Virus record (IMG/VR): IMGVR_UViG_2913123054_000006
Coordinates: 1-10,322 of that record
Length of the DNA: 10,322 nt
From: a virus
Lineage: Duplodnaviria > Heunggongvirae > Uroviricota > Caudoviricetes
Direction: 5' to 3' (one strand)
Position 1 is the first letter of the stretch. Every line of letters begins with the position of its first letter. A model generated the notes under the pieces. The model was not told the origin of the DNA and did not search any database. It saw only the letters and a list, made by a program, of their open reading frames with translations. Shown one piece after another: positions 1,867 to 8,331 of the stretch. The position numbers and the translations under genes were made by a program.

Positions 1867-1933
1867 TCATCCCTTCATAAAAATTTAAAGCCTTACATTT
1901 CAATGTGTTGGCTTTATTTCACATTTAATATTG

Positions 1934-1977
1934 AGTTTTCTCATCAAAAACACTTGACCTGTAGACATGAGAAAACT
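1934..1977. promoter_or_regulatory. Candidate operator 2: inverted repeat AGTTTTCTCAT (1934..1944) / ATGAGAAAACT (1967..1977) bracketing a -35 element
   Basis: 11/11 perfect inverted arms separated by 22 bp that contain TTGACC (1954..1959). The left arm lies within the second copy of the 13-mer TTGAGTTTTCTCA (1931..1943). Confidence 0.45.
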
Positions 1978-1982
1978 AAATT
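1954..1982 (+). promoter_or_regulatory. Candidate sigma70 promoter (PL-like) driving the rightward small ORFs and possibly the kilR-recE-int block
   Basis: TTGACC (1954..1959), 17-bp spacer, TAAATT (1977..1982). First good promoter downstream of the repressor gene, embedded in the operator-like inverted repeat. Confidence 0.45.
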
Positions 1983-2054
1983 ACATTCCATCAAGACACC
2001 GCACGGTGTTCTCAGCAAACAGTTCCGCCACCCGGCGTTAAGGGGAGAGATAAG

Positions 2055-2189
2055 ATGGAGCATTACGAAGTAGTTCAGTATTTGATGGATTGTTGCGGTA
2101 TCACTTACAACCAAGCTGTACAGGCTCTACGCAGGAACGACTGGGATCTCTGGCAAGCAGAAGCCTCTATCCGCAACAACAAGATGTGA
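2055..2189 (+). CDS. Small hypothetical protein, 44 aa (possibly YdaG-like; below the ORF-track size cut-off)
   Basis: ATG at 2055 preceded by strong SD AAGGGGAGAG with 5-nt spacing. Translates to MEHYEVVQYLMDCCGITYNQAVQALRRNDWDLWQAEASIRNNKM, stop TGA 2187..2189. Position and length fit the small genes that follow racR in Rac, but I cannot confirm identity from memory. Confidence 0.45.
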   Translation: MEHYEVVQYLMDCCGITYNQAVQALRRNDWDLWQAEASIRNNKM

Positions 2190-2199
2190 GATTCGCAAA

Positions 2200-2355
2200 A
2201 TGCAAAAAATCGGCCTCGGCAACAACGAATCCCTGGTGTGCGGCGTGTTCCCCAACCAGGATGGAACGTTCACCGCCATGACTTATACCAAAAGCAAAAC
2301 GTTTAAAACCGAAGCTGGCGCACGTCGCTGGTTGGCAATACATTCAGGTGAATAA
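2200..2355 (+). CDS. Small hypothetical protein, 51 aa (possibly YdaF-like)
   Basis: ATG 2200, MQKIGLGNNESLVCGVFPNQDGTFTAMTYTKSKTFKTEAGARRWLAIHSGE, stop TAA 2353..2355. Weak RBS. Stop is followed 1 nt later by the start of the next gene (TAAaATG), suggesting a coupled operon. Preferred over track ORF 2090..2281, which has an implausible S/P/R/C-rich composition. Confidence 0.4.
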   Translation: MQKIGLGNNESLVCGVFPNQDGTFTAMTYTKSKTFKTEAGARRWLAIHSGE

Positions 2356-2356
2356 A

Positions 2357-2719
2357 ATGAACGAAACAGAATTAAAACACGTTATCGCTCTGCTTCTGGA
2401 GGATGCAAAGCGCCTCCAGCAGCTGGAACCAAATGCAGGCACTGAAGAACGAATTATTATGGCTAATAAAAGTCTACATTCTGCATATGATACAAATACA
2501 AAGCAAACAGATAAAAATATTATTGTTTATGGGCACAGCGTTAACAGAGAATTTGCTTACTTTGTTCTGGAAAAATATCAACCTACATTTTGCCGGATAA
2601 TAGAAGAACTAACATTAAAAGGCAAAGATAAAGAGTTTGTTGAAAATGCTGTGGCAACGGCAAGCGCAGCAGCCGTTGCCAGTATCAAATCAATGATTAC
2701 TCTAGCGATTAACCAATAA
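2357..2719 (+). CDS. Hypothetical protein, 120 aa, no recognisable domain; accessory gene in the repressor-adjacent slot
   Basis: Track ORF 2348..2719 begins at GTG; preferred start ATG 2357 (MNETELKHVIALLLEDAKRLQQLEPNAGTEERIIMANKSLHSAYD...) with AGGTGA 5 nt upstream. Visibly AT-rich coding sequence compared with the flanking genes. Hydrophilic, no membrane segments. 3' end overlaps the convergent minus-strand ORF by 11 nt. Confidence 0.6.
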   Translation: MNETELKHVIALLLEDAKRLQQLEPNAGTEERIIMANKSLHSAYDTNTKQTDKNIIVYGHSVNREFAYFVLEKYQPTFCRIIEELTLKGKDKEFVENAVATASAAAVASIKSMITLAINQ

Positions 2720-2888
2720 ACCCAGGGGGGATATCACGCTGAGGCGGGTTAAGAAGCTCGGTAAACTCCGCTCTCAGGCGTTGAACTTCTGAAATAAAAT
2801 CGGCTTCACTGCAATCCCAGCCTTTGGGGTGCTTAAGTCGCAAATATTCAAAAACTAACGAATCAATTTCATTCATATTGGATAGCAC
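2709..2888 (-). CDS. Hypothetical small protein, 59 aa, convergent with the 120-aa gene
   Basis: Within track ORF 2709..3080(-). Preferred start is GTG at 2888 (then LSNMNEIDSLVFEYLRLKHPKGWDCSEADFISEVQRLRAEFTELLNPPQRDIPPGFIG), preceded by a perfect AAGGAG at 7-nt spacing; alternative ATG at 2876. The long N-terminal extension back to 3080 has no RBS and Pro-rich odd composition, so I reject it. Confidence 0.5.
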   Translation of the reverse strand: MLSNMNEIDSLVFEYLRLKHPKGWDCSEADFISEVQRLRAEFTELLNPPQRDIPPGFIG

Positions 2889-2921
2889 AATTATTCTCCT
2901 TACTGGTTGTGTGAGAACTCC

Positions 2922-2949
2922 AGTATACCACCGAGCCTGAAGTGGTAAA
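2922..2949 (-). promoter_or_regulatory. Candidate promoter with extended -10 for the 59-aa minus-strand gene
   Basis: Minus strand reads TTTACC (plus 2944..2949), 16-bp spacer, TGgTATACT (extended -10, plus 2922..2930), about 30 nt upstream of the AAGGAG/GTG start. Confidence 0.4.
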
Positions 2950-3072
2950 AAGACAGGCGCACAACACGAAGGCGCATTTCCGATATCCATAAAGAGTCGG
3001 TCTTGTCTGTTAAATTTAAATGGTGGGAGTGCGCCTCCGGTTGTGAATAACAACACTGCTGTATGTAGTCTT

Positions 3073-3122
3073 GGCGGCATCAGTTTTTCTTGAAGTTCGA
3101 CTGATGTCCGCCCTTTTTAAAG
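3073..3122 (+). terminator. Candidate intrinsic terminator upstream of kilR (tL-like)
   Basis: GGCGGCATCAG (3073..3083) pairs with CTGATGTCCGCC (3101..3112) as an 11-bp stem with one bulged T and a 17-nt loop, followed by CTTTTT (3113..3118). The U-tract is present only on the + strand. Confidence 0.4.
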
Positions 3123-3293
3123 TGAATTTTGTGATGCGGTGAATGCGGCTAAGCGCACGCGGCATAGTTAAAAGTCATGTTAGTCCTTATTGGTTTGGGT
3201 GGGAAAGCCGACTGTAATTGTTAACTGGTTGCAGTCACCTGGAGGCACCAGGCGCCGCATCAACAAAGTTCATTTGTAAAAATGGAGATAATT

Positions 3294-3515
3294 ATGATTG
3301 CACATCACTTCGGAACTGATGAAATACCACGTCAGTGTGTGACTCCTGGTGATTATGTTCTTCATGAAGGCCGGACATATATTGCCTCGGCAAACAATAT
3401 TAAAAAGCGAAAACTTTATATTCGTAACCTGACCACAAAAACATGCATTACTGACTGCATGATTAAAGTCTTCCTCGGTCGTGATGGTTTACCTGTAAAG
3501 GCGGAGTCATGGTGA
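3294..3515 (+). CDS. kilR: KilR, Rac-prophage FtsZ/cell-division inhibitor
   Basis: Track ORF 3282..3515; preferred start ATG 3294 ([73 protein letters not shown], 73 aa) with GGAGAT 4 nt upstream. Sequence and length match my memory of Rac KilR. Confidence 0.8.
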
Positions 3516-4135: not shown

Positions 4136-7100
4136 ATGAGCACAAAACCACTCTTCCTGTTACGGAAAGCGAAAAAATCATCCGGTGAACCTGACGTCGT
4201 CCTGTGGGCAAGCGACGATTTTGAATCGACCTGTGCCACTCTGGACTACCTGCTCGTTAAGTCAGGTAAAAAACTGAGCAGCTATTTTAAACCTGTTGCC
4301 ACGAATTTTCCTGTCGTTAATGACCTTCCCCCTGAAGGTGAGATCGATTTTACCTGGAGTGAACGCTATCAACTCAGCAAAGACTCCATGACCTGGGAAC
4401 TAAAACCGGGAGCAGCGCCAGACGACGTTCACCATCAGGAGAATGCACCGGAAACCGAAGAACCGGCGGGAGGCCAGGAAGAAAACACACGGGCAGACGC
4501 TCACGGGGATTGCCAGGATTGCGAAATCCCTGTAGCCACACTCAGTCTTACTCATCGTTTCCTTCATCTCTTCTTTTTCGGTCGGATGGAAGATGGAAAA
4601 TACAGCAATCACGCCACGCCGGAACAGCGTAATAACGTCATCCGGATGGAGATGGATACGGAGGATAGCTACCTCCAGAGCCTGCTTACAGCAGTACGTT
4701 CTCATCCTGAACTGGATAAGCTGGCAAACCATCATCTTGGCAGGTTGGCGGAGTCGGTATCCAGAGTGTTTACCCGCACAGAAACCCGTCGCATCAGCCC
4801 TGCTGAATTCGACAAATTCATTTCCACCTGGATGAAAACTGATTATCTGGAGCAGGGATTACTGACAAAAGAGTTGGCGAAGGGAAATTGCGTATCTGAA
4901 ATCAATCGCACCCCGTCGGGCGCAAATGCCGGTGGCGGTATTCTTACCGACCGTGGCGAAGGTTTTGTCCACGATGATGCATCACTGGCGCGCGATGTAG
5001 CCACTGGTGTACTGGCCCGTTCAATGGACGTGGACATCTATAACCTTCATCCGGCACACGCTAAACGCATTGAGGAAATTATCGCTGAAAATAAACCGCC
5101 CTTTTCTGTTTTCCGCGACAAATTCATCACCATGCCTGGCGGGCTGGATTATTCACGCGCCATCGTGGTTGCGTCCGTGAAAGAAGCACCAATTGGGATC
5201 GAGGTCATCCCCGCGCACGTCACTGAATATCTGAACAAAGTACTGACTGAAACCGATCATGCCAACCCTGATCCGGAAATCGTGGATATTGCCTGCGGTC
5301 GCTCCTCTGCCCCGATGCCGCAGCGAGTAACAGAAGAAGGAAAACAGGATGATGAAGAAAAACCGCAACCATCTGGAACAACGGCAGATGAACAGGGAGA
5401 GGCTGAAACAATGGAACCGGACGCAACTGAACATCATCAGGACACGCAGCCGCTGGATGCTCAGTCACAGGTAAATTCTGTTGATGCGAAATATCAGGAA
5501 CTGCGGGCAGAACTCCATGAAGCCCGGAAAAACATTCCATCAAAAAATCCTGTCGATGCCGATAAATTACTTGCTGCATCACGTGGTGAATTTGTTGACG
5601 GAATTAGCGACCCGAACGATCCGAAATGGGTTAAGGGGATCCAGACTCGCGATTCTGTGTACCAGAACCAGCCAGAAACGGAAAAAACCAGCCCGGATGT
5701 GAAACAACCTGAGCCAGTAGTGCAACAGGAACCGGAAATAGTCTGCAATGCCTGCGGTCAGACTGGCGGAGATAACTGCCCTGACTGTGGGGCGGTGACG
5801 GGGGACGCAACATACCAGGAAACATTCGATGAAGAGAATCAGGTTGAAGCTAAGGAAAAAGATCCGGTGGAAATGGAAGGCGCTGAACATCCGCACAATG
5901 AGAATGCTGGCAGCGATCCGCATCGTGATTGCAGTGATGAAACTGGTGAAGCGTCAGCTCCTGTAGCAACTGAAATCATGTGGCCGTCATATTTCGAGCC
6001 TGGCCGCTATGAAAACCTCCCGAACGAGGTTTATCACTCCGCCAACGGAATAAGCAGCACGATGCTGAAGGATGCCCGTATCAGCCTGATGTATTACCAC
6101 GGACGGCACATTGCCGGAACTATTCCGAACGAGGAAAGTGATGTACTGCTGCGTGGGCGGATCATTCACAGCTATGTTCTGGAAACGGATAAATTCGCTG
6201 ATGAATATGCCATTCCGGTACCGGTTCCTGAATATGTGGTTACTACTTCTAGCGAACTGATCGCCATCATTAAAAAACACAATGCCAGTCTGCCAGCACT
6301 GATGACACCAGAGCAGATGAAAGAGTGGATCGAAAGCTACAACAGCACTCTTATACAGCCACTGTCTGTAAGTGCCGGGGCCGAAGAAACAGGCATCCTT
6401 TACGGTTCGCTTCCGGTGGAATTTCGGCGTATTCCTGAGGGGGAAAAACACACAGCATCAGCAATGAAAGCCTGTATTAAAGAATACAACGCAAGCCTCC
6501 CTCCTCTGTTGAAAACCAGTGGAGCACGGGAGCAGCTTCTGGATCAAATTGAAACTGTAGACCCAGAACTGGCAAAAAAAGAACGTGCTAAATCTTTGCC
6601 TTACAACATCAGTGGCACAAAAGAGCAATTAACCGAAATCGCACGGAAAATTCGCCCGGAACTGGTGACACTGGAGGACTGGCAAAAACGCCAGCAAGAA
6701 GAAAATGCCGGGAAAACGTTTATCAGTCCGGATATGTATGAACAGGCAAAAAATATTCACGCGGCACTGCAAAACAATACCGATGCAGCAAGGCTACTTA
6801 ACCACCCGGATCGCAAATCTGAAATCAGCTATTTCGGGTTTGATGAAGAAACCGGGCTGGAAATCAGGGTCCGTCCTGATATCGAAATCCGGCTGCCATA
6901 CGAAAGCATTTGCGCTGACGTGAAGTCAGTCAGCCTCGGTTATGTGCGACAGGAACGACTTAAAGATCGCCTGCACCGTGAAATTATTGAGCGTGATTAT
7001 CACCTCAGCGCCGCAATGTATTGCGATGTGGCAAACCTGGACAAATTTTTCTGGATCTTCGTCAACAAAGATGCTGGCTATCACTGGGTGGCAGTCGTGG

Positions 7101-7267
7101 AAGCCTCGCAGGAACTCCTGGAACTTGGTCGACAGGAATATCGCCGGACGCTACGCCAGATAAACGAAGCCCTGGAGACAAACAACTGGCCAGCACCGAT
7201 TACCGAAAGTTATACCGACGAATTAAACGACTTTGATCTTCGTCGTCTTGAAGCACTGAGCATCTGA
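4136..7267 (+). CDS. recE: RecE-family exodeoxyribonuclease VIII (1043 aa) with a divergent C-terminal PD-(D/E)XK nuclease domain
   Basis: Track ORF with GAGGT SD. N-terminus [26 protein letters not shown]... and the long acidic central region match Rac RecE as I recall it. C-terminal domain carries RecE-like motifs (..RVRPDIEI.., ..ICADVKSVS.., ..[21 protein letters not shown]) but differs from the K-12 C-terminus I remember (..CRCRPDKII.., ..IMDVKTT.., ..[22 protein letters not shown]). Confidence 0.9.
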
Positions 7268-7278
7268 GGAAGGACACA

Positions 7279-8331
7279 ATGAACGAATTAACTCAACAAG
7301 AAAATATTAACTCTAATGTTGCGGTTTTCAGCCCTCAGTCCCTGGCTGCAATTCAGACATTTTCCCAGGTAATGGCTTCCGGCATGGCTACTGTACCGGA
7401 ACACCTCCGGGGAAATCCATCAGACTGCATGGCCATCACCATGCAGGCGATGCAGTGGCAAATGAACCCTTACGCAGTAGCTCAGAAAACTTTCGTTGTG
7501 AATGGTGTGCTCGGATATGAAGCGCAACTGGTTAATGCCGTAATCAGTACTCGTGGGCCGCTAACCGGGCGTATTGAATATGACTGGTTCGGGCCGTGGG
7601 AAAAAATTATCGGGAAATTTGAAATCAGGAAGAGCGACAAAGGGAAAGAATATCGTGTACCTGGCTGGAAGCTGGCCGATGAAAACGGGATCGGTGTTCG
7701 TGTCCAGGCAACACTACGCGGCGAAAGTAAACCACGCGTACTGGAATTACTTCTGGCGCAGGCCAGAACACGTAACTCAACGCTATGGGCCGACGATCCT
7801 CGCCAGCAGCTTGCCTATCTGGCGCTGAAACGCTGGGCGCGCCTTTATTGCCCCGAAGTGATTCTTGGAGTGTACACCAGGGACGAACTGGACGAGCCAC
7901 AGGAAAAAATCATTAATCCGGTTCAGGAACATAAAAACACTTCCGCTTGCCGCGCGGAACGTGAAACAACAATTATTGAGCAGGATGCCGGGGAAAACTG
8001 GATCGATGCTTTCCGTGAACGTATTGAGCAGGCACAAAGCACCGGGGAAACAACAGCACTTCGCCAGGAAGTGGAAGATCATAAAAATACACTTGGCGCT
8101 CTCTATACGGAACTTAAAGGAAAAGTGGTTCAGCGTCATCACCGTCTCAATGCTATTGCCCGTATCGAGAAGATGATAAATGACCTACCTTCTTCAGGTG
8201 ATCCAGAAGCAGAACAAAAATTTACTGCTCTGGAAAATACGCTGAATGCTGCCCGGCCACATCTGGGTGAATTATATGAGGCGTATAAAACGACACTGAC
8301 AGATATGAAACCAGAATATATCGGCTCCTGA
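7279..8331 (+). CDS. Putative phage single-strand annealing protein / recombinase partner of RecE (350 aa); family not assignable without a search, not canonical RecT
   Basis: Track ORF starting 11 nt after the recE stop with GGAAGGA SD, occupying the position recT holds in Rac (recE-recT-lar). Sequence (MNELTQQENINSNVAVFSPQSLAAIQTFSQVMASGMATVPEHLRGNPSDCMAITMQAMQWQMNPYAVAQKTF...) does not match K-12 RecT or lambda Bet as I recall them. Functional call is by synteny only. Confidence 0.5.
   Translation: MNELTQQENINSNVAVFSPQSLAAIQTFSQVMASGMATVPEHLRGNPSDCMAITMQAMQWQMNPYAVAQKTFVVNGVLGYEAQLVNAVISTRGPLTGRIEYDWFGPWEKIIGKFEIRKSDKGKEYRVPGWKLADENGIGVRVQATLRGESKPRVLELLLAQARTRNSTLWADDPRQQLAYLALKRWARLYCPEVILGVYTRDELDEPQEKIINPVQEHKNTSACRAERETTIIEQDAGENWIDAFRERIEQAQSTGETTALRQEVEDHKNTLGALYTELKGKVVQRHHRLNAIARIEKMINDLPSSGDPEAEQKFTALENTLNAARPHLGELYEAYKTTLTDMKPEYIGS

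What the first reader, a model, noticed from the sequence alone, without database searches (positions are those of the whole stretch)
2357..2949. Uncharacterised convergent two-gene cassette (120 aa + 59 aa) in the repressor-adjacent accessory slot
Between the CI-like repressor and the kilR-recE early-left genes, where lambdoid prophages carry exclusion or defence cargo (rexAB in lambda; sieB in P22 and, as I recall, in K-12 Rac), this window has two ORFs I cannot assign to any family. One is a visibly AT-rich 120-aa gene (2357..2719, +) translationally chained to the small upstream ORFs. The other is a 59-aa gene (2709..2888, -) with its own extended -10 promoter (TGgTATACT) and perfect AAGGAG SD. 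They converge and overlap by 11 nt at their 3' ends, so their transcripts would be mutually antisense. Location, composition and architecture fit a moron-type superinfection-exclusion, abortive-infection or toxin/antitoxin-like module. No SieB-like multi-pass membrane protein is present.
Basis: partly seen in the sequence, partly recalled or inferred. Interest (0 to 1): 0.8.

Follow-up and report, generated by a model that had tools for sequence, protein, structure and literature searches.

The report
Conserved convergent gene pair replacing sieB
In the slot where related prophages carry the exclusion gene sieB, this Rac-like prophage carries two small, real, always-paired genes of unknown function that face each other, so it is a good untested candidate for a new prophage accessory or defence module.

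Summary
GeneA (2357-2719, +, 120 aa) and geneB (2709-2888, -, 59 aa, GTG start) converge with an 11-nt 3' overlap. GeneB has an AAGGAG Shine-Dalgarno and a TG-extended -10 promoter. The segment (about 2336-2959) is AT-rich and replaces sieB, or an 81-bp sieB-deletion scar, between identical flanks in other E. coli. Both ORFs are real genes (dN/dS about 0.1-0.35 across genera).

New findings:
- GeneB is a divergent member of the YdiH (PF15930) superfamily, whose function is unknown.
- GeneA joins a slot-wide 45-aa N-terminal module to a cassette-specific C-terminal domain.
- That C-domain and a YdiH-like gene co-occur, convergent and overlapping, in every prophage locus examined (more than 40 loci, about 9 lineages, down to about 18% identity).
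- GeneB's roughly 55-nt promoter/5'UTR is more conserved than any cargo. It drives unrelated small genes in 379 of 5426 E. coli genomes and in 8 sequenced phage records.

No homology to SieB, toxin-antitoxin systems or known defence systems was found, and structure searches were uninformative. Function is inferred only. The most likely reading is a lysogen-expressed cargo gene (B) opposed by an induction-expressed cognate partner (A) in an excludon arrangement. Exclusion or defence remains untested.

The parts
2336..2959 (.). Variable cassette segment that replaces sieB (574 bp in L002) or an 81-bp sieB-deletion scar (L003) between the end of ydaF and the shared spacer upstream of kilR
   Evidence: blastn breakpoints at window 2335/2336 and 2927-2936. 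The junction alignment shows true divergence up to about 2959. GC of 2336-2950 is 39.8% against 46.2% for the window.
2357..2719 (+). geneA, 120 aa, third gene of the early-left chain ydaG-ydaF-geneA; acidic, soluble, helical
   Evidence: ORF. Full-length homologs at 45-62% identity in Salmonella and Enterobacter. dN/dS 0.13-0.22. AF2 pLDDT 75.8. pI 5.9. PGAP annotates only 40 codons as a pseudogene, although the ORF is intact.
2357..2491 (+). N-terminal module of geneA (about 45 aa, two-helix hairpin), shared by many slot proteins that have unrelated C-termini
   Evidence: phrog_30817, 12693, 2982 and 32391 match residues 1-47 only. 193 hits, most of them covering only the N-terminal part of the query. 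Always found just after the repressor or ydaF. pN 0.105 against pS 0.683 shows protein-level conservation.
2510..2716 (+). Cassette-specific C-terminal domain of geneA (beta-hairpin plus two long helices); always co-occurs with geneB, with or without the N-module
   Evidence: HMM screens. C-domain-only versions in L018, L019 and L150. AF2 secondary structure E54-57, E60-63, H64-87, H92-119.
2709..2888 (-). geneB, 59 aa, GTG start; acidic two-helix protein; divergent YdiH (PF15930) superfamily; sits in the position and orientation of sieB
   Evidence: ORF. PGAP calls it hypothetical protein WP_001502430.1. Homologs found by eye and by HMM in all partner loci. Aligned start codons GTG/TTG/TTG/TTG/ATG. 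dN/dS 0.09-0.35. hhalign against the YdiH clade: 97.7%, E = 1.6e-12. AF2 pLDDT 80. pI 4.7.
2709..2719 (.). 11-nt convergent 3' overlap of geneA and geneB, with no intrinsic terminator between them
   Evidence: Coordinates. Overlap is conserved at 9-185 nt in 16 loci. No terminator-like site in the cassette.
2896..2901 (-). Shine-Dalgarno AAGGAG of geneB, 7 nt upstream of the GTG
   Evidence: Sequence. Conserved as AAGGAG, AAGGAA or AAAGGA in all lineages.
2922..2949 (-). geneB promoter: -35 TTTACC (2949->2944), 16-nt spacer, TG-extended -10 TGgTATACT (2930->2922)
   Evidence: Promoter scan. The -10 is conserved across genera.
2896..2958 (-). Conserved promoter/5'UTR 'expression module' with three inverted repeats: GCCTG(2958->2954)/CAGGC(2939->2935), ACCAC(2946->2942)/GTGGT(2931->2927), ACTGG(2924->2920)/CCAGT(2906->2902). 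It drives unrelated cargo genes in other prophages.
   Evidence: More conserved than the coding sequence. Precedes unrelated ORFs in L012/13, L014/15, L030, L051, L148 and L149. Found in 379 of 5426 E. coli genomes and 8 phage records. One covarying pair, A-T against G-C.
1954..1982 (+). Candidate early-left (pL/dicBp-like) promoter that would drive ydaG-ydaF-geneA and on to kilR
   Evidence: TTGACC-17-TAAATT in the promoter scan. Its role is inferred from position and from co-induction of ydaG, ydaF, kilR, ydaE and racC in K-12 (PMC11014345).

Best explanation
This is a mobile two-gene accessory cassette of Rac/DicA-type lambdoid prophages that occupies the sieB slot.

GeneB is a 59-aa, acidic, two-helix protein of the YdiH superfamily. 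It is read from its own conserved, TG-extended -10 promoter, against the direction of the repressor-controlled early-left operon. It is therefore most likely the cargo expressed in the lysogen.

GeneA is the third cistron of that early-left operon (ydaG-ydaF-geneA ... DicF-like RNA-kilR-recET), so it is made mainly after derepression. It consists of an N-terminal module common to this slot plus a C-terminal domain that exists only together with geneB.

The genes converge, overlap at their 3' ends and have no terminator between them. Each transcript would therefore run antisense into the other (an excludon): B on and A off in the lysogen, and the reverse on induction. At the protein level, the C-domain of A is proposed to bind or neutralise B. 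That would let the induced phage switch off its own lysogenic factor, as Esc does for SieB and aba does for BstA. B itself is proposed to be a small protein-binding inhibitor acting on an incoming phage or a host target.

Shown: the anatomy, that both are real genes, the family links, strict co-occurrence, alternation with sieB, and modular exchange.
Inferred: expression timing, transcriptional interference, A-B interaction, and any exclusion or defence phenotype.
For: - Same flanks carry sieB, a sieB-deletion scar or this cassette.
- GeneB has sieB's position and orientation and its own conserved promoter, Shine-Dalgarno and start codon.
- Both genes are under purifying selection.
- The A C-domain and B co-occur in both search directions: every B locus has the C-domain, and 25 of 25 loci found through the C-domain have B. 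This holds across about 9 lineages down to 17-19% identity, with the overlap always kept, and with or without the N-module.
- Loci with the N-module but other cargo have neither the C-domain nor B.
- A 98.9-100% identical cassette sits behind repressors that are only 24-35% identical, so it moves as a unit.
- No terminator lies between the genes.
- Literature: the K-12 early-left genes are co-induced 40-70-fold when RacR control is perturbed (PMC11014345). sieB-ydaF is an RNA-seq excludon (PMC12288877). sieB/sas/Esc and BstA/aba are precedents for a lysogenic factor with antisense control or cognate self-immunity at this kind of locus.
Against: - There is no expression data for this cassette.
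- The promoter is a consensus match; on its own the scan count for the region equals the chance expectation.
- There are no hits to any defence, toxin, antitoxin or exclusion family, no solved relatives, and only generic helical fold matches.
- A-B binding could not be modelled.
- Co-divergence (r = 0.89) is expected from linkage alone.
- Chromosomal ydiH works without any A-like partner, so B-type proteins do not intrinsically need A.
- sieB-type loci have no N-module ORF, so the analogy with sieB is positional only.
Confidence: 0.4

Rival explanations
1. A toxin-antidote 'safety catch'. GeneA's C-domain is a harmful early-lytic, host-takeover function like Kil. GeneB is the antidote made in the lysogen, and it neutralises leaky geneA until induction swamps it and antisense transcription shuts geneB off.
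For: - The A C-domain was never found without B (25 of 25), whereas a B-type gene can stand alone (K-12 ydiH). That asymmetry is typical of toxins and orphan antitoxins.
- The cassette lies inside the operon that also carries the toxic kilR.
- B is small and acidic, like many protein antitoxins or inhibitors.
Against: - No similarity to any toxin or antitoxin family.
- The genes are convergent, not co-transcribed, and B has no DNA-binding domain.
- The same asymmetry is equally expected if A is an anti-B factor.
- The slot otherwise holds sieB, an exclusion gene rather than a toxin-antitoxin pair.
Confidence: 0.2
2. Two functionally independent small accessory genes. They travel together only because they lie between two conserved, recombination-prone borders (the N-module and the promoter/UTR element), with no protein-level partnership.
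For: - The borders are far more conserved than the content, and unrelated contents sit between them. Anything inside would therefore be inherited as a block.
- Co-divergence (r = 0.89) is what linkage predicts.
- There is no direct evidence of interaction.
Against: - The pair stays together down to 17-19% identity across about 9 lineages and three or more genera.
- It also stays together in lineages that have lost or never had the N-module border (L018, L019, L150-type).
- It was never seen split or recombined with another cargo in more than 40 loci.
- Other cassettes in the slot also come as matched plus-strand and minus-strand pairs.
Confidence: 0.15
3. The functional unit is the antisense promoter and transcript, not protein B. 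A constitutive convergent promoter between pL and the DicF-like RNA and kilR damps leaky early-left transcription in the lysogen. The ORFs are passengers.
For: - The promoter/UTR element is the most conserved part and is independent of cargo.
- It lies just upstream of the DicF-like RNA and kilR.
- The sieB-ydaF excludon exists in K-12.
- One covarying pair suggests a structured or operator-like element.
Against: - GeneB has dN/dS of 0.09-0.35 with a conserved start codon and Shine-Dalgarno, so the protein itself is selected.
- This may be true in addition to the main explanation, but it cannot be the whole story.
- sieB-deleted 'empty' loci keep a promoter without any cargo, which fits a promoter role but says nothing against a role for protein B.
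Confidence: 0.1
4. Not a real feature. GeneA is a pseudogene remnant, as PGAP annotates it, and geneB is a chance ORF.
For: - PGAP marks only 40 codons of geneA as an incomplete pseudogene.
- The word-indexed protein search found only two near-identical geneB hits.
Against: - The geneA ORF is intact in all copies and has full-length homologs.
- Both genes have pN far below pS.
- GeneB homologs are present but often uncalled by gene finders.
Confidence: 0.02

Closest known systems
sieB (superinfection exclusion B) of Rac, lambda and P22, with its Esc antidote and sas antisense RNA
   Same: - Same genomic slot and orientation: between ydaF and the kilR-proximal spacer, opposite to the early-left operon.
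- Has its own promoter.
- Converges on ydaF and forms an excludon in K-12 (PMC12288877).
- In P22 the system has antisense control and a cognate escape protein.
   Different: - No sequence similarity.
- SieB in L002 is 162 aa, and its N-terminal half is visibly hydrophobic, whereas geneB is a 59-aa soluble acidic helix hairpin.
- Esc is an in-frame product of sieB (from my own knowledge of the P22 literature), whereas here the putative partner is a separate convergent gene.
- Exclusion activity of this cassette is untested.
YdiH family (Pfam PF15930, function unknown; E. coli K-12 b1685)
   Same: - GeneB's clade matches the YdiH-type clade profile-to-profile (97.7%, E = 1.6e-12).
- Orthologous slot genes in L009, L018 and L019 pass Pfam's threshold.
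- Similar length (59-69 aa), and the alignment covers the core of the protein.
   Different: - The window protein itself gets no Pfam hit.
- K-12 YdiH aligned to the geneB clade gives only 66% probability.
- K-12 ydiH is chromosomal, next to menI, rydB and sufA, and has no geneA-like partner.
- YdiH has no known function, so membership explains nothing mechanistically.
BstA/aba and lambda RexAB: lysogen-expressed defence genes in the repressor-adjacent mosaic hotspot
   Same: An accessory locus next to the immunity repressor. BstA has a cognate, locus-specific self-immunity element that lets the induced prophage escape its own defence (bioRxiv 10.1101/2020.07.13.199331). That is the logic proposed here for geneA and geneB.
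   Different: - BstA and RexAB are described there as lying downstream of cI, presumably sharing the repressor's promoter; geneB is antisense to the early operon.
- aba is a DNA element, not a protein.
- No homology to known defence models.
- Defence is unproven here.
Excludons (convergent overlapping transcription units with mutually exclusive expression)
   Same: Convergent genes with overlapping 3' ends and no intervening terminator. The neighbouring arrangement sieB-ydaF is a listed excludon.
   Different: The overlap is shown only at the DNA and ORF level here. Transcript ends and mutual interference have not been measured.
Rac-SA53 rac10/rac11 and other unnamed pairs in the same slot
   Same: Same architecture: a plus-strand ORF after the repressor, a convergent minus-strand small ORF behind the same conserved promoter/UTR element, then kil.
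   Different: The protein sequences are unrelated to geneA's C-domain and to geneB. They also have no Pfam or PADLOC matches.

Membership tests
SieB (superinfection exclusion B) | Sequence homology to SieB | tested here: not met
   No SieB or other significant Pfam hit for either ORF. tblastn of Rac-type SieB (from L002) against the whole window: best E = 1.8.
SieB (superinfection exclusion B) | Hydrophobic, membrane-type protein of about 160-200 aa | tested here: not met
   GeneB is 59 aa with GRAVY -0.38 and geneA is 120 aa with GRAVY -0.23. The alanine-rich C-terminal helix of geneA carries charged residues in homologs, and AF2 models it as one of two long helices. No dedicated transmembrane predictor was run.
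SieB (superinfection exclusion B) | Position between ydaF and kilR, opposite strand to the early-left operon | tested here: met
   GeneB replaces sieB between the same flanks and in the same orientation.
YdiH (Pfam PF15930) | Score at or above Pfam's gathering threshold (27 bits) | tested here: not met
   The window's geneB gets no hit even at E <= 10. Slot orthologs in L009 (29.5 bits), P0125 (30.1), P0126 (28.9) and P0132 (28.8) do pass.
YdiH (Pfam PF15930) | Profile-level homology to bona fide members over the core of the protein | tested here: met
   hhalign of geneB clade A4 against YdiH-type clade A5: 97.7%, E = 1.6e-12, 48 columns. K-12 YdiH alone against A4: 66%, E = 5.6e-5.
Type II toxin-antitoxin system | Two co-transcribed genes, and a recognisable toxin or antitoxin domain (often an antitoxin with a DNA-binding fold) | tested here: not met
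   The genes are convergent. There are no toxin or antitoxin domains in Pfam, NCBIfam or PADLOC.
Type II toxin-antitoxin system | One product toxic, the other neutralising it | not testable with these tools
   Needs expression assays.
Type I toxin-antitoxin (small hydrophobic toxin plus antisense RNA) | A small membrane toxin and a non-coding antisense RNA | tested here: not met
   Both strands encode proteins under purifying selection. Neither product is hydrophobic overall. No Rfam family lies inside the cassette.
Known anti-phage defence systems (PADLOC-DB v2) | HMM match of a component | tested here: not met
   No hits for geneA or geneB, nor for 8 alternative slot proteins apart from one chance-level match at E = 0.039.
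Moron / prophage accessory cassette | Present or absent between conserved neighbours; own promoter; deviant base composition | tested here: met
   Alternates with sieB or an empty scar. Own conserved promoter. GC 39.8% against 46.2%. A dedicated terminator was not found.
Moron / prophage accessory cassette | Expressed from the repressed prophage | not testable with these tools
   No transcriptome exists for a strain with this cassette. Inferred from the promoter and from the sieB precedent.
Excludon | Convergent genes whose transcription units overlap | tested here: inconclusive
   The ORFs overlap by 11 nt here and by 9-185 nt in relatives, and there is no terminator between them. Transcript ends are unmeasured.

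The most novel reading that the evidence does not exclude
The cassette is one member of an unrecognised plug-and-play hotspot in Rac/DicA-type lambdoid prophages of Enterobacteriaceae. In that hotspot a conserved antisense promoter/5'UTR module expresses interchangeable small effector proteins in the lysogen. Each effector is matched by a cognate early-lytic partner, and the partner often carries a shared 45-aa N-terminal adaptor. Together these would form a family of miniature two-protein 'exclusion plus self-immunity' systems, of which the YdiH-like/geneA pair is one. This would also give the first functional handle on the orphan E. coli protein YdiH.
Probability: 0.25. Interest if true: 0.8.

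Novelty: new variant of a known kind. Interest (0 to 1): 0.55.

Why it matters
Repressor-adjacent slots of temperate phages have repeatedly yielded defence systems (RexAB, SieB, BstA).

Here the slot is shown to have fixed borders: a strongly conserved N-terminal peptide module and a conserved promoter/UTR found in about 7% of complete E. coli genomes and in 8 sequenced phage records. The contents are interchangeable, wholly uncharacterised small gene pairs.

This gives three things:
- A simple rule for mining many new candidate prophage accessory or defence pairs that gene callers often miss or mis-annotate. PGAP calls geneA a pseudogene, and geneB homologs are frequently uncalled.
- A concrete, cheap-to-test hypothesis of lysogen-effector and induction-antidote logic.
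- A phage-derived context for the orphan E. coli K-12 protein YdiH.

If the pair has no phenotype, it is still a clean example of modular exchange at a mosaic hotspot.

Tried and rejected
Annotation and similarity searches:
- Truncated or divergent sieB: rejected.
- Family scans of both proteins: Pfam, NCBIfam and PADLOC gave nothing significant; PHROGs matched only geneA's N-module. Pfam on nine C-domain homologs: nothing.
- PDB sequence search with profiles: nothing at E < 0.4.

Ideas tested and dropped:
- C-terminal transmembrane anchor in geneA: rejected, because distant homologs carry Arg and Glu there and AF2 models it as one of two long helices.
- Word-indexed homology search for geneB found only 2 and then 5 clusters. 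This misleadingly suggested an orphan; reading the partner loci directly revealed the homologs. The exhaustive profile search added YdiH-type members but no functional lead.
- K-12 Qin YdfB being the N-module: not confirmed. No ydfB-labelled hit appeared among the DNA matches listed.
- RNA family in the cassette: none. The DicF-like and STnc100-like hits lie outside it.
- Consensus folding of the promoter element: the same two hairpins on both strands with only one covarying pair, so it cannot decide between an RNA structure and a DNA operator, or between strands.
- Literature on YdiH, DUF1391, Rac-SA53 and this slot: no functional study of these genes.

Errors and wasted calls:
- My 16-base motif scan of genome contigs was too loose. 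By my estimate about 280 chance hits would be expected.
- Alignments too diverse for the search for related loci.
Full report
OBSERVATION. The window is the immunity and early-left region of a Rac-like lambdoid prophage:
- YdaT/YdaS-like genes on the minus strand (748-1408).
- A CI/DicA-like HTH repressor (1459-1866, +; PF01381 E = 1e-16).
- A ydaG-like ORF (2055-2189) and ydaF/DUF1391 (2200-2355).
- The two ORFs of the finding.
- Then kilR, ydaE, racC, recE, a recT-like gene, a small ORF in the position of ralR, xis and int.

- GeneA runs from ATG 2357 to TAA 2719 (120 aa) and starts 1 nt after the ydaF stop.
- GeneB runs from 2888 down to 2709 (59 aa, GTG start).
- The two overlap by 11 nt.
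- AAGGAG lies 7 nt before the GTG.
- A -35 TTTACC, a 16-nt spacer and a TG-extended -10 TATACT lie at 2949->2922.
- GeneA has 37.5% GC against 46.2% for the window.
- No SieB-like sequence exists in the window.

THE SLOT. A megablast of 1900-3300 against 5,426 complete E. coli genomes found the flanks in thousands of genomes but most of the query in only six. The cassette core (2490-2950) is present in nine genomes at 98.9-100% identity. Between the same flanks, other strains carry sieB on the strand and in the position of geneB (L002). Others carry an 81-bp joint that retains the sieB promoter and is therefore a sieB deletion (L003). The variable segment is about 2336-2959. The cassette sits behind three repressors that are only 24-35% identical to each other (window, L001, L004), so it moves as a unit between immunity types.

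BOTH ORFS ARE GENES. PGAP annotates geneB as a hypothetical protein. It annotates only the first 40 codons of geneA, as an 'incomplete' pseudogene, although the 120-codon ORF is intact in every copy. GeneA has full-length homologs in Salmonella, Enterobacter and metagenomes at 45-62% identity. The word-indexed search made geneB look like an orphan. Reading the DNA next to each geneA homolog showed a convergent homologous ORF every time, including where the gene caller had missed it. In five lineages the start codon (GTG/TTG/TTG/TTG/ATG) aligns 7-8 nt after a conserved Shine-Dalgarno. Nei-Gojobori estimates give pN far below pS for both genes, with dN/dS of 0.13-0.22 for geneA and 0.09-0.35 for geneB.

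FAMILY RELATIONS. GeneB itself has no Pfam hit. Its most divergent slot orthologs (L009, L018/P0125, L019/P0126) pass the gathering score of PF15930 (YdiH, function unknown). A profile of the window's clade aligns to a profile of YdiH-type proteins at 97.7% probability, E = 1.6e-12. K-12 YdiH alone gives 66%. K-12 ydiH is chromosomal (between menI and rydB/sufA) and has no geneA-like neighbour. The literature offers no function.

GeneA is modular. Residues 1-45 match four PHROGs of unknown function and most of the roughly 190 database hits, all joined to unrelated C-termini. These proteins always lie directly after the repressor or ydaF, on the early-left strand. The module is conserved as a protein: pN 0.105 against pS 0.683. 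Residues about 52-120 form a separate domain.

THE PAIR. HMMs for the N-module, the C-domain and geneB were run over all fetched loci.
- Every prophage locus with a geneB/YdiH-like gene has the geneA C-domain convergent and adjacent.
- Loci with the N-module but other cargo have neither.
- In the reverse direction, 25 of 25 viral contigs recovered through the C-domain have geneB.
- In Lelliottia (L018), a metagenome contig (L019) and Klebsiella phage ST405-OXA48phi1.2 and its relatives (L150, L152-171), the C-domain occurs without the N-module, still paired with a YdiH-like gene.
- Across 16 representative loci the two proteins diverge to 17-19% identity, co-diverge (r = 0.89, which linkage alone would predict), and always keep a 3' overlap of 9-185 nt.

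The conserved unit is therefore [geneA C-domain] plus [YdiH-like geneB].

A CONSERVED EXPRESSION MODULE. The roughly 55 nt upstream of geneB (2896-2958) are more conserved across genera than the coding sequence. The same element precedes unrelated minus-strand ORFs in other prophages and in sequenced phage records: rac10 in Rac-SA53, an unannotated 95-aa ORF in Cronobacter phiES15, and others. Each of these has its own plus-strand partner. It occurs in 379 of 5,426 E. coli genomes and in 8 phage records, always unannotated. None of eight alternative cargos or partners matches Pfam or PADLOC. The element contains three inverted repeats. One pair, linking the -10 hexamer to the base before the Shine-Dalgarno, switches A-T to G-C in about half the lineages. 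That hints at an operator or hairpin, but the strand and the ligand are undetermined. The slot thus has two fixed borders (the N-module and the promoter/UTR) with swappable content between them.

STRUCTURE AND NEGATIVE SEARCHES.
- AF2 models geneA (pLDDT 75.8) as an N-terminal helix hairpin, a disordered linker, a beta-hairpin and two long helices.
- AF2 models geneB (pLDDT 80) as a two-helix hairpin.
- Both proteins are acidic and not hydrophobic overall.
- PDB sequence, PADLOC, NCBIfam and Pfam searches are empty.

MECHANISM. The steps that are shown are the anatomy, selection, pairing, mobility, and positional equivalence to sieB.

The steps that are inferred are as follows. GeneB is read from its own promoter against the early-left operon and is probably the lysogen-expressed cargo, as sieB is. 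In K-12, sieB-ydaF is listed as an RNA-seq excludon (PMC12288877). GeneA lies in the operon whose K-12 counterpart (ydaG, ydaF, kilR, ydaE, racC) rises 40-70-fold when RacR control is perturbed (PMC11014345), so it is probably made on induction. With no terminator between them, the two transcripts would interfere with each other.

The strict pairing of a cassette-specific geneA domain with geneB suggests a protein-level partnership. I favour geneA as the induced phage's antagonist of its own lysogenic factor. Precedents are P22 SieB/Esc/sas and BstA/aba. The mirror-image model, with geneA harmful and geneB its antidote, fits the observation that YdiH-type genes can stand alone while the C-domain never does, and it cannot be excluded. 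Pure linkage without interaction, and a mainly transcriptional 'insulator' role for the promoter, are weaker rivals. Whether geneB excludes phages is entirely untested.

NOVELTY AND VERDICT. I found no paper describing these genes, the N-module, the promoter element or the slot's pair-wise organisation. The kind of thing, an accessory cassette in the repressor-adjacent mosaic hotspot, is well known. The proteins and the two-border, cognate-pair architecture are not. I rate it a new variant of a known kind, of moderate to good interest: a solid, testable lead rather than a demonstrated system.

LIMITS. There are no expression or interaction data. Lineage counts are from limited, partly redundant samples. 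My motif scan of the species-representative genome collection was too loose and mostly noise, so the taxonomic census is incomplete.

Noticed in passing
window 3060-3113 (+): DicF-like sRNA just below Rfam's gathering score (45.1 against 48 bits, E = 6e-8, full-length model match). It lies in the shared spacer between the cassette and kilR, mirroring ydfABC-dicF-dicB in Qin.
   Followed up: partly
window 3115-3301 (+): Weak match to the Rfam sRNA STnc100 (31.9 against 47 bits, E = 1.7e-4), immediately upstream of and running into the kilR start.
   Followed up: no
window 2896-2958 (-); also L012, L014, L030, L051, L148, L149, L150: A roughly 55-nt promoter/5'UTR element more conserved than any gene it drives. 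It is present in 379 of 5426 E. coli genomes and 8 phage records and is unannotated everywhere. It has three inverted repeats, and one pair covaries (A-T against G-C) between the -10 and the base before the Shine-Dalgarno.
   Followed up: partly
L001 2837-2956; L004 2640-2759 (equivalent to window 2357-2476): RefSeq/PGAP annotates only the first 40 codons of geneA as an 'incomplete' pseudogene, although the 120-codon ORF is intact. GeneB homologs are uncalled in L007 and L008 and unannotated in Klebsiella phage ST405-OXA48phi1.2, and the minus-strand cargo ORF is unannotated in Cronobacter phiES15. Small genes in this slot are systematically under-annotated.
   Followed up: yes
L003 2812-2892: 'Empty' Rac-like loci are sieB deletions that keep the sieB promoter and a few bases of downstream sequence. 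The promoter survives without its cargo.
   Followed up: partly
L004 1727-2199; L009 2496-3809: Other cargo is inserted between the repressor and this slot in some relatives: a RelE/ParE toxin with a small upstream ORF in L004, and a DUF6414 protein plus an 85-aa minus-strand ORF in L009. The whole repressor-to-kil interval is therefore a multi-site hotspot.
   Followed up: no
L143/L173 and protein P0122: Some copies of geneB have a disrupted 3' end. P0122 reads through into a 102-aa product, and in L143 the HMM match is truncated. This indicates occasional decay of the gene.
   Followed up: no
window 4136-7267 and 7279-8331 (+): The ORF at the recE position is 1043 aa and the one at the recT position is 350 aa. 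From memory, both are longer than the K-12 Rac versions (about 866 and 269 aa). The extra recE sequence is acidic and low-complexity. Not examined.
   Followed up: no
L014/L015 and L149 (phiES15), minus-strand cargo: A recurrent alternative cargo family (MPTYLARVELYNAEPEDYEGLHKYM... and MFSVRVELRNSETADYTALHEKM...) sits behind the same promoter element in E. coli and Cronobacter phages. It has no Pfam or PADLOC match.
   Followed up: partly
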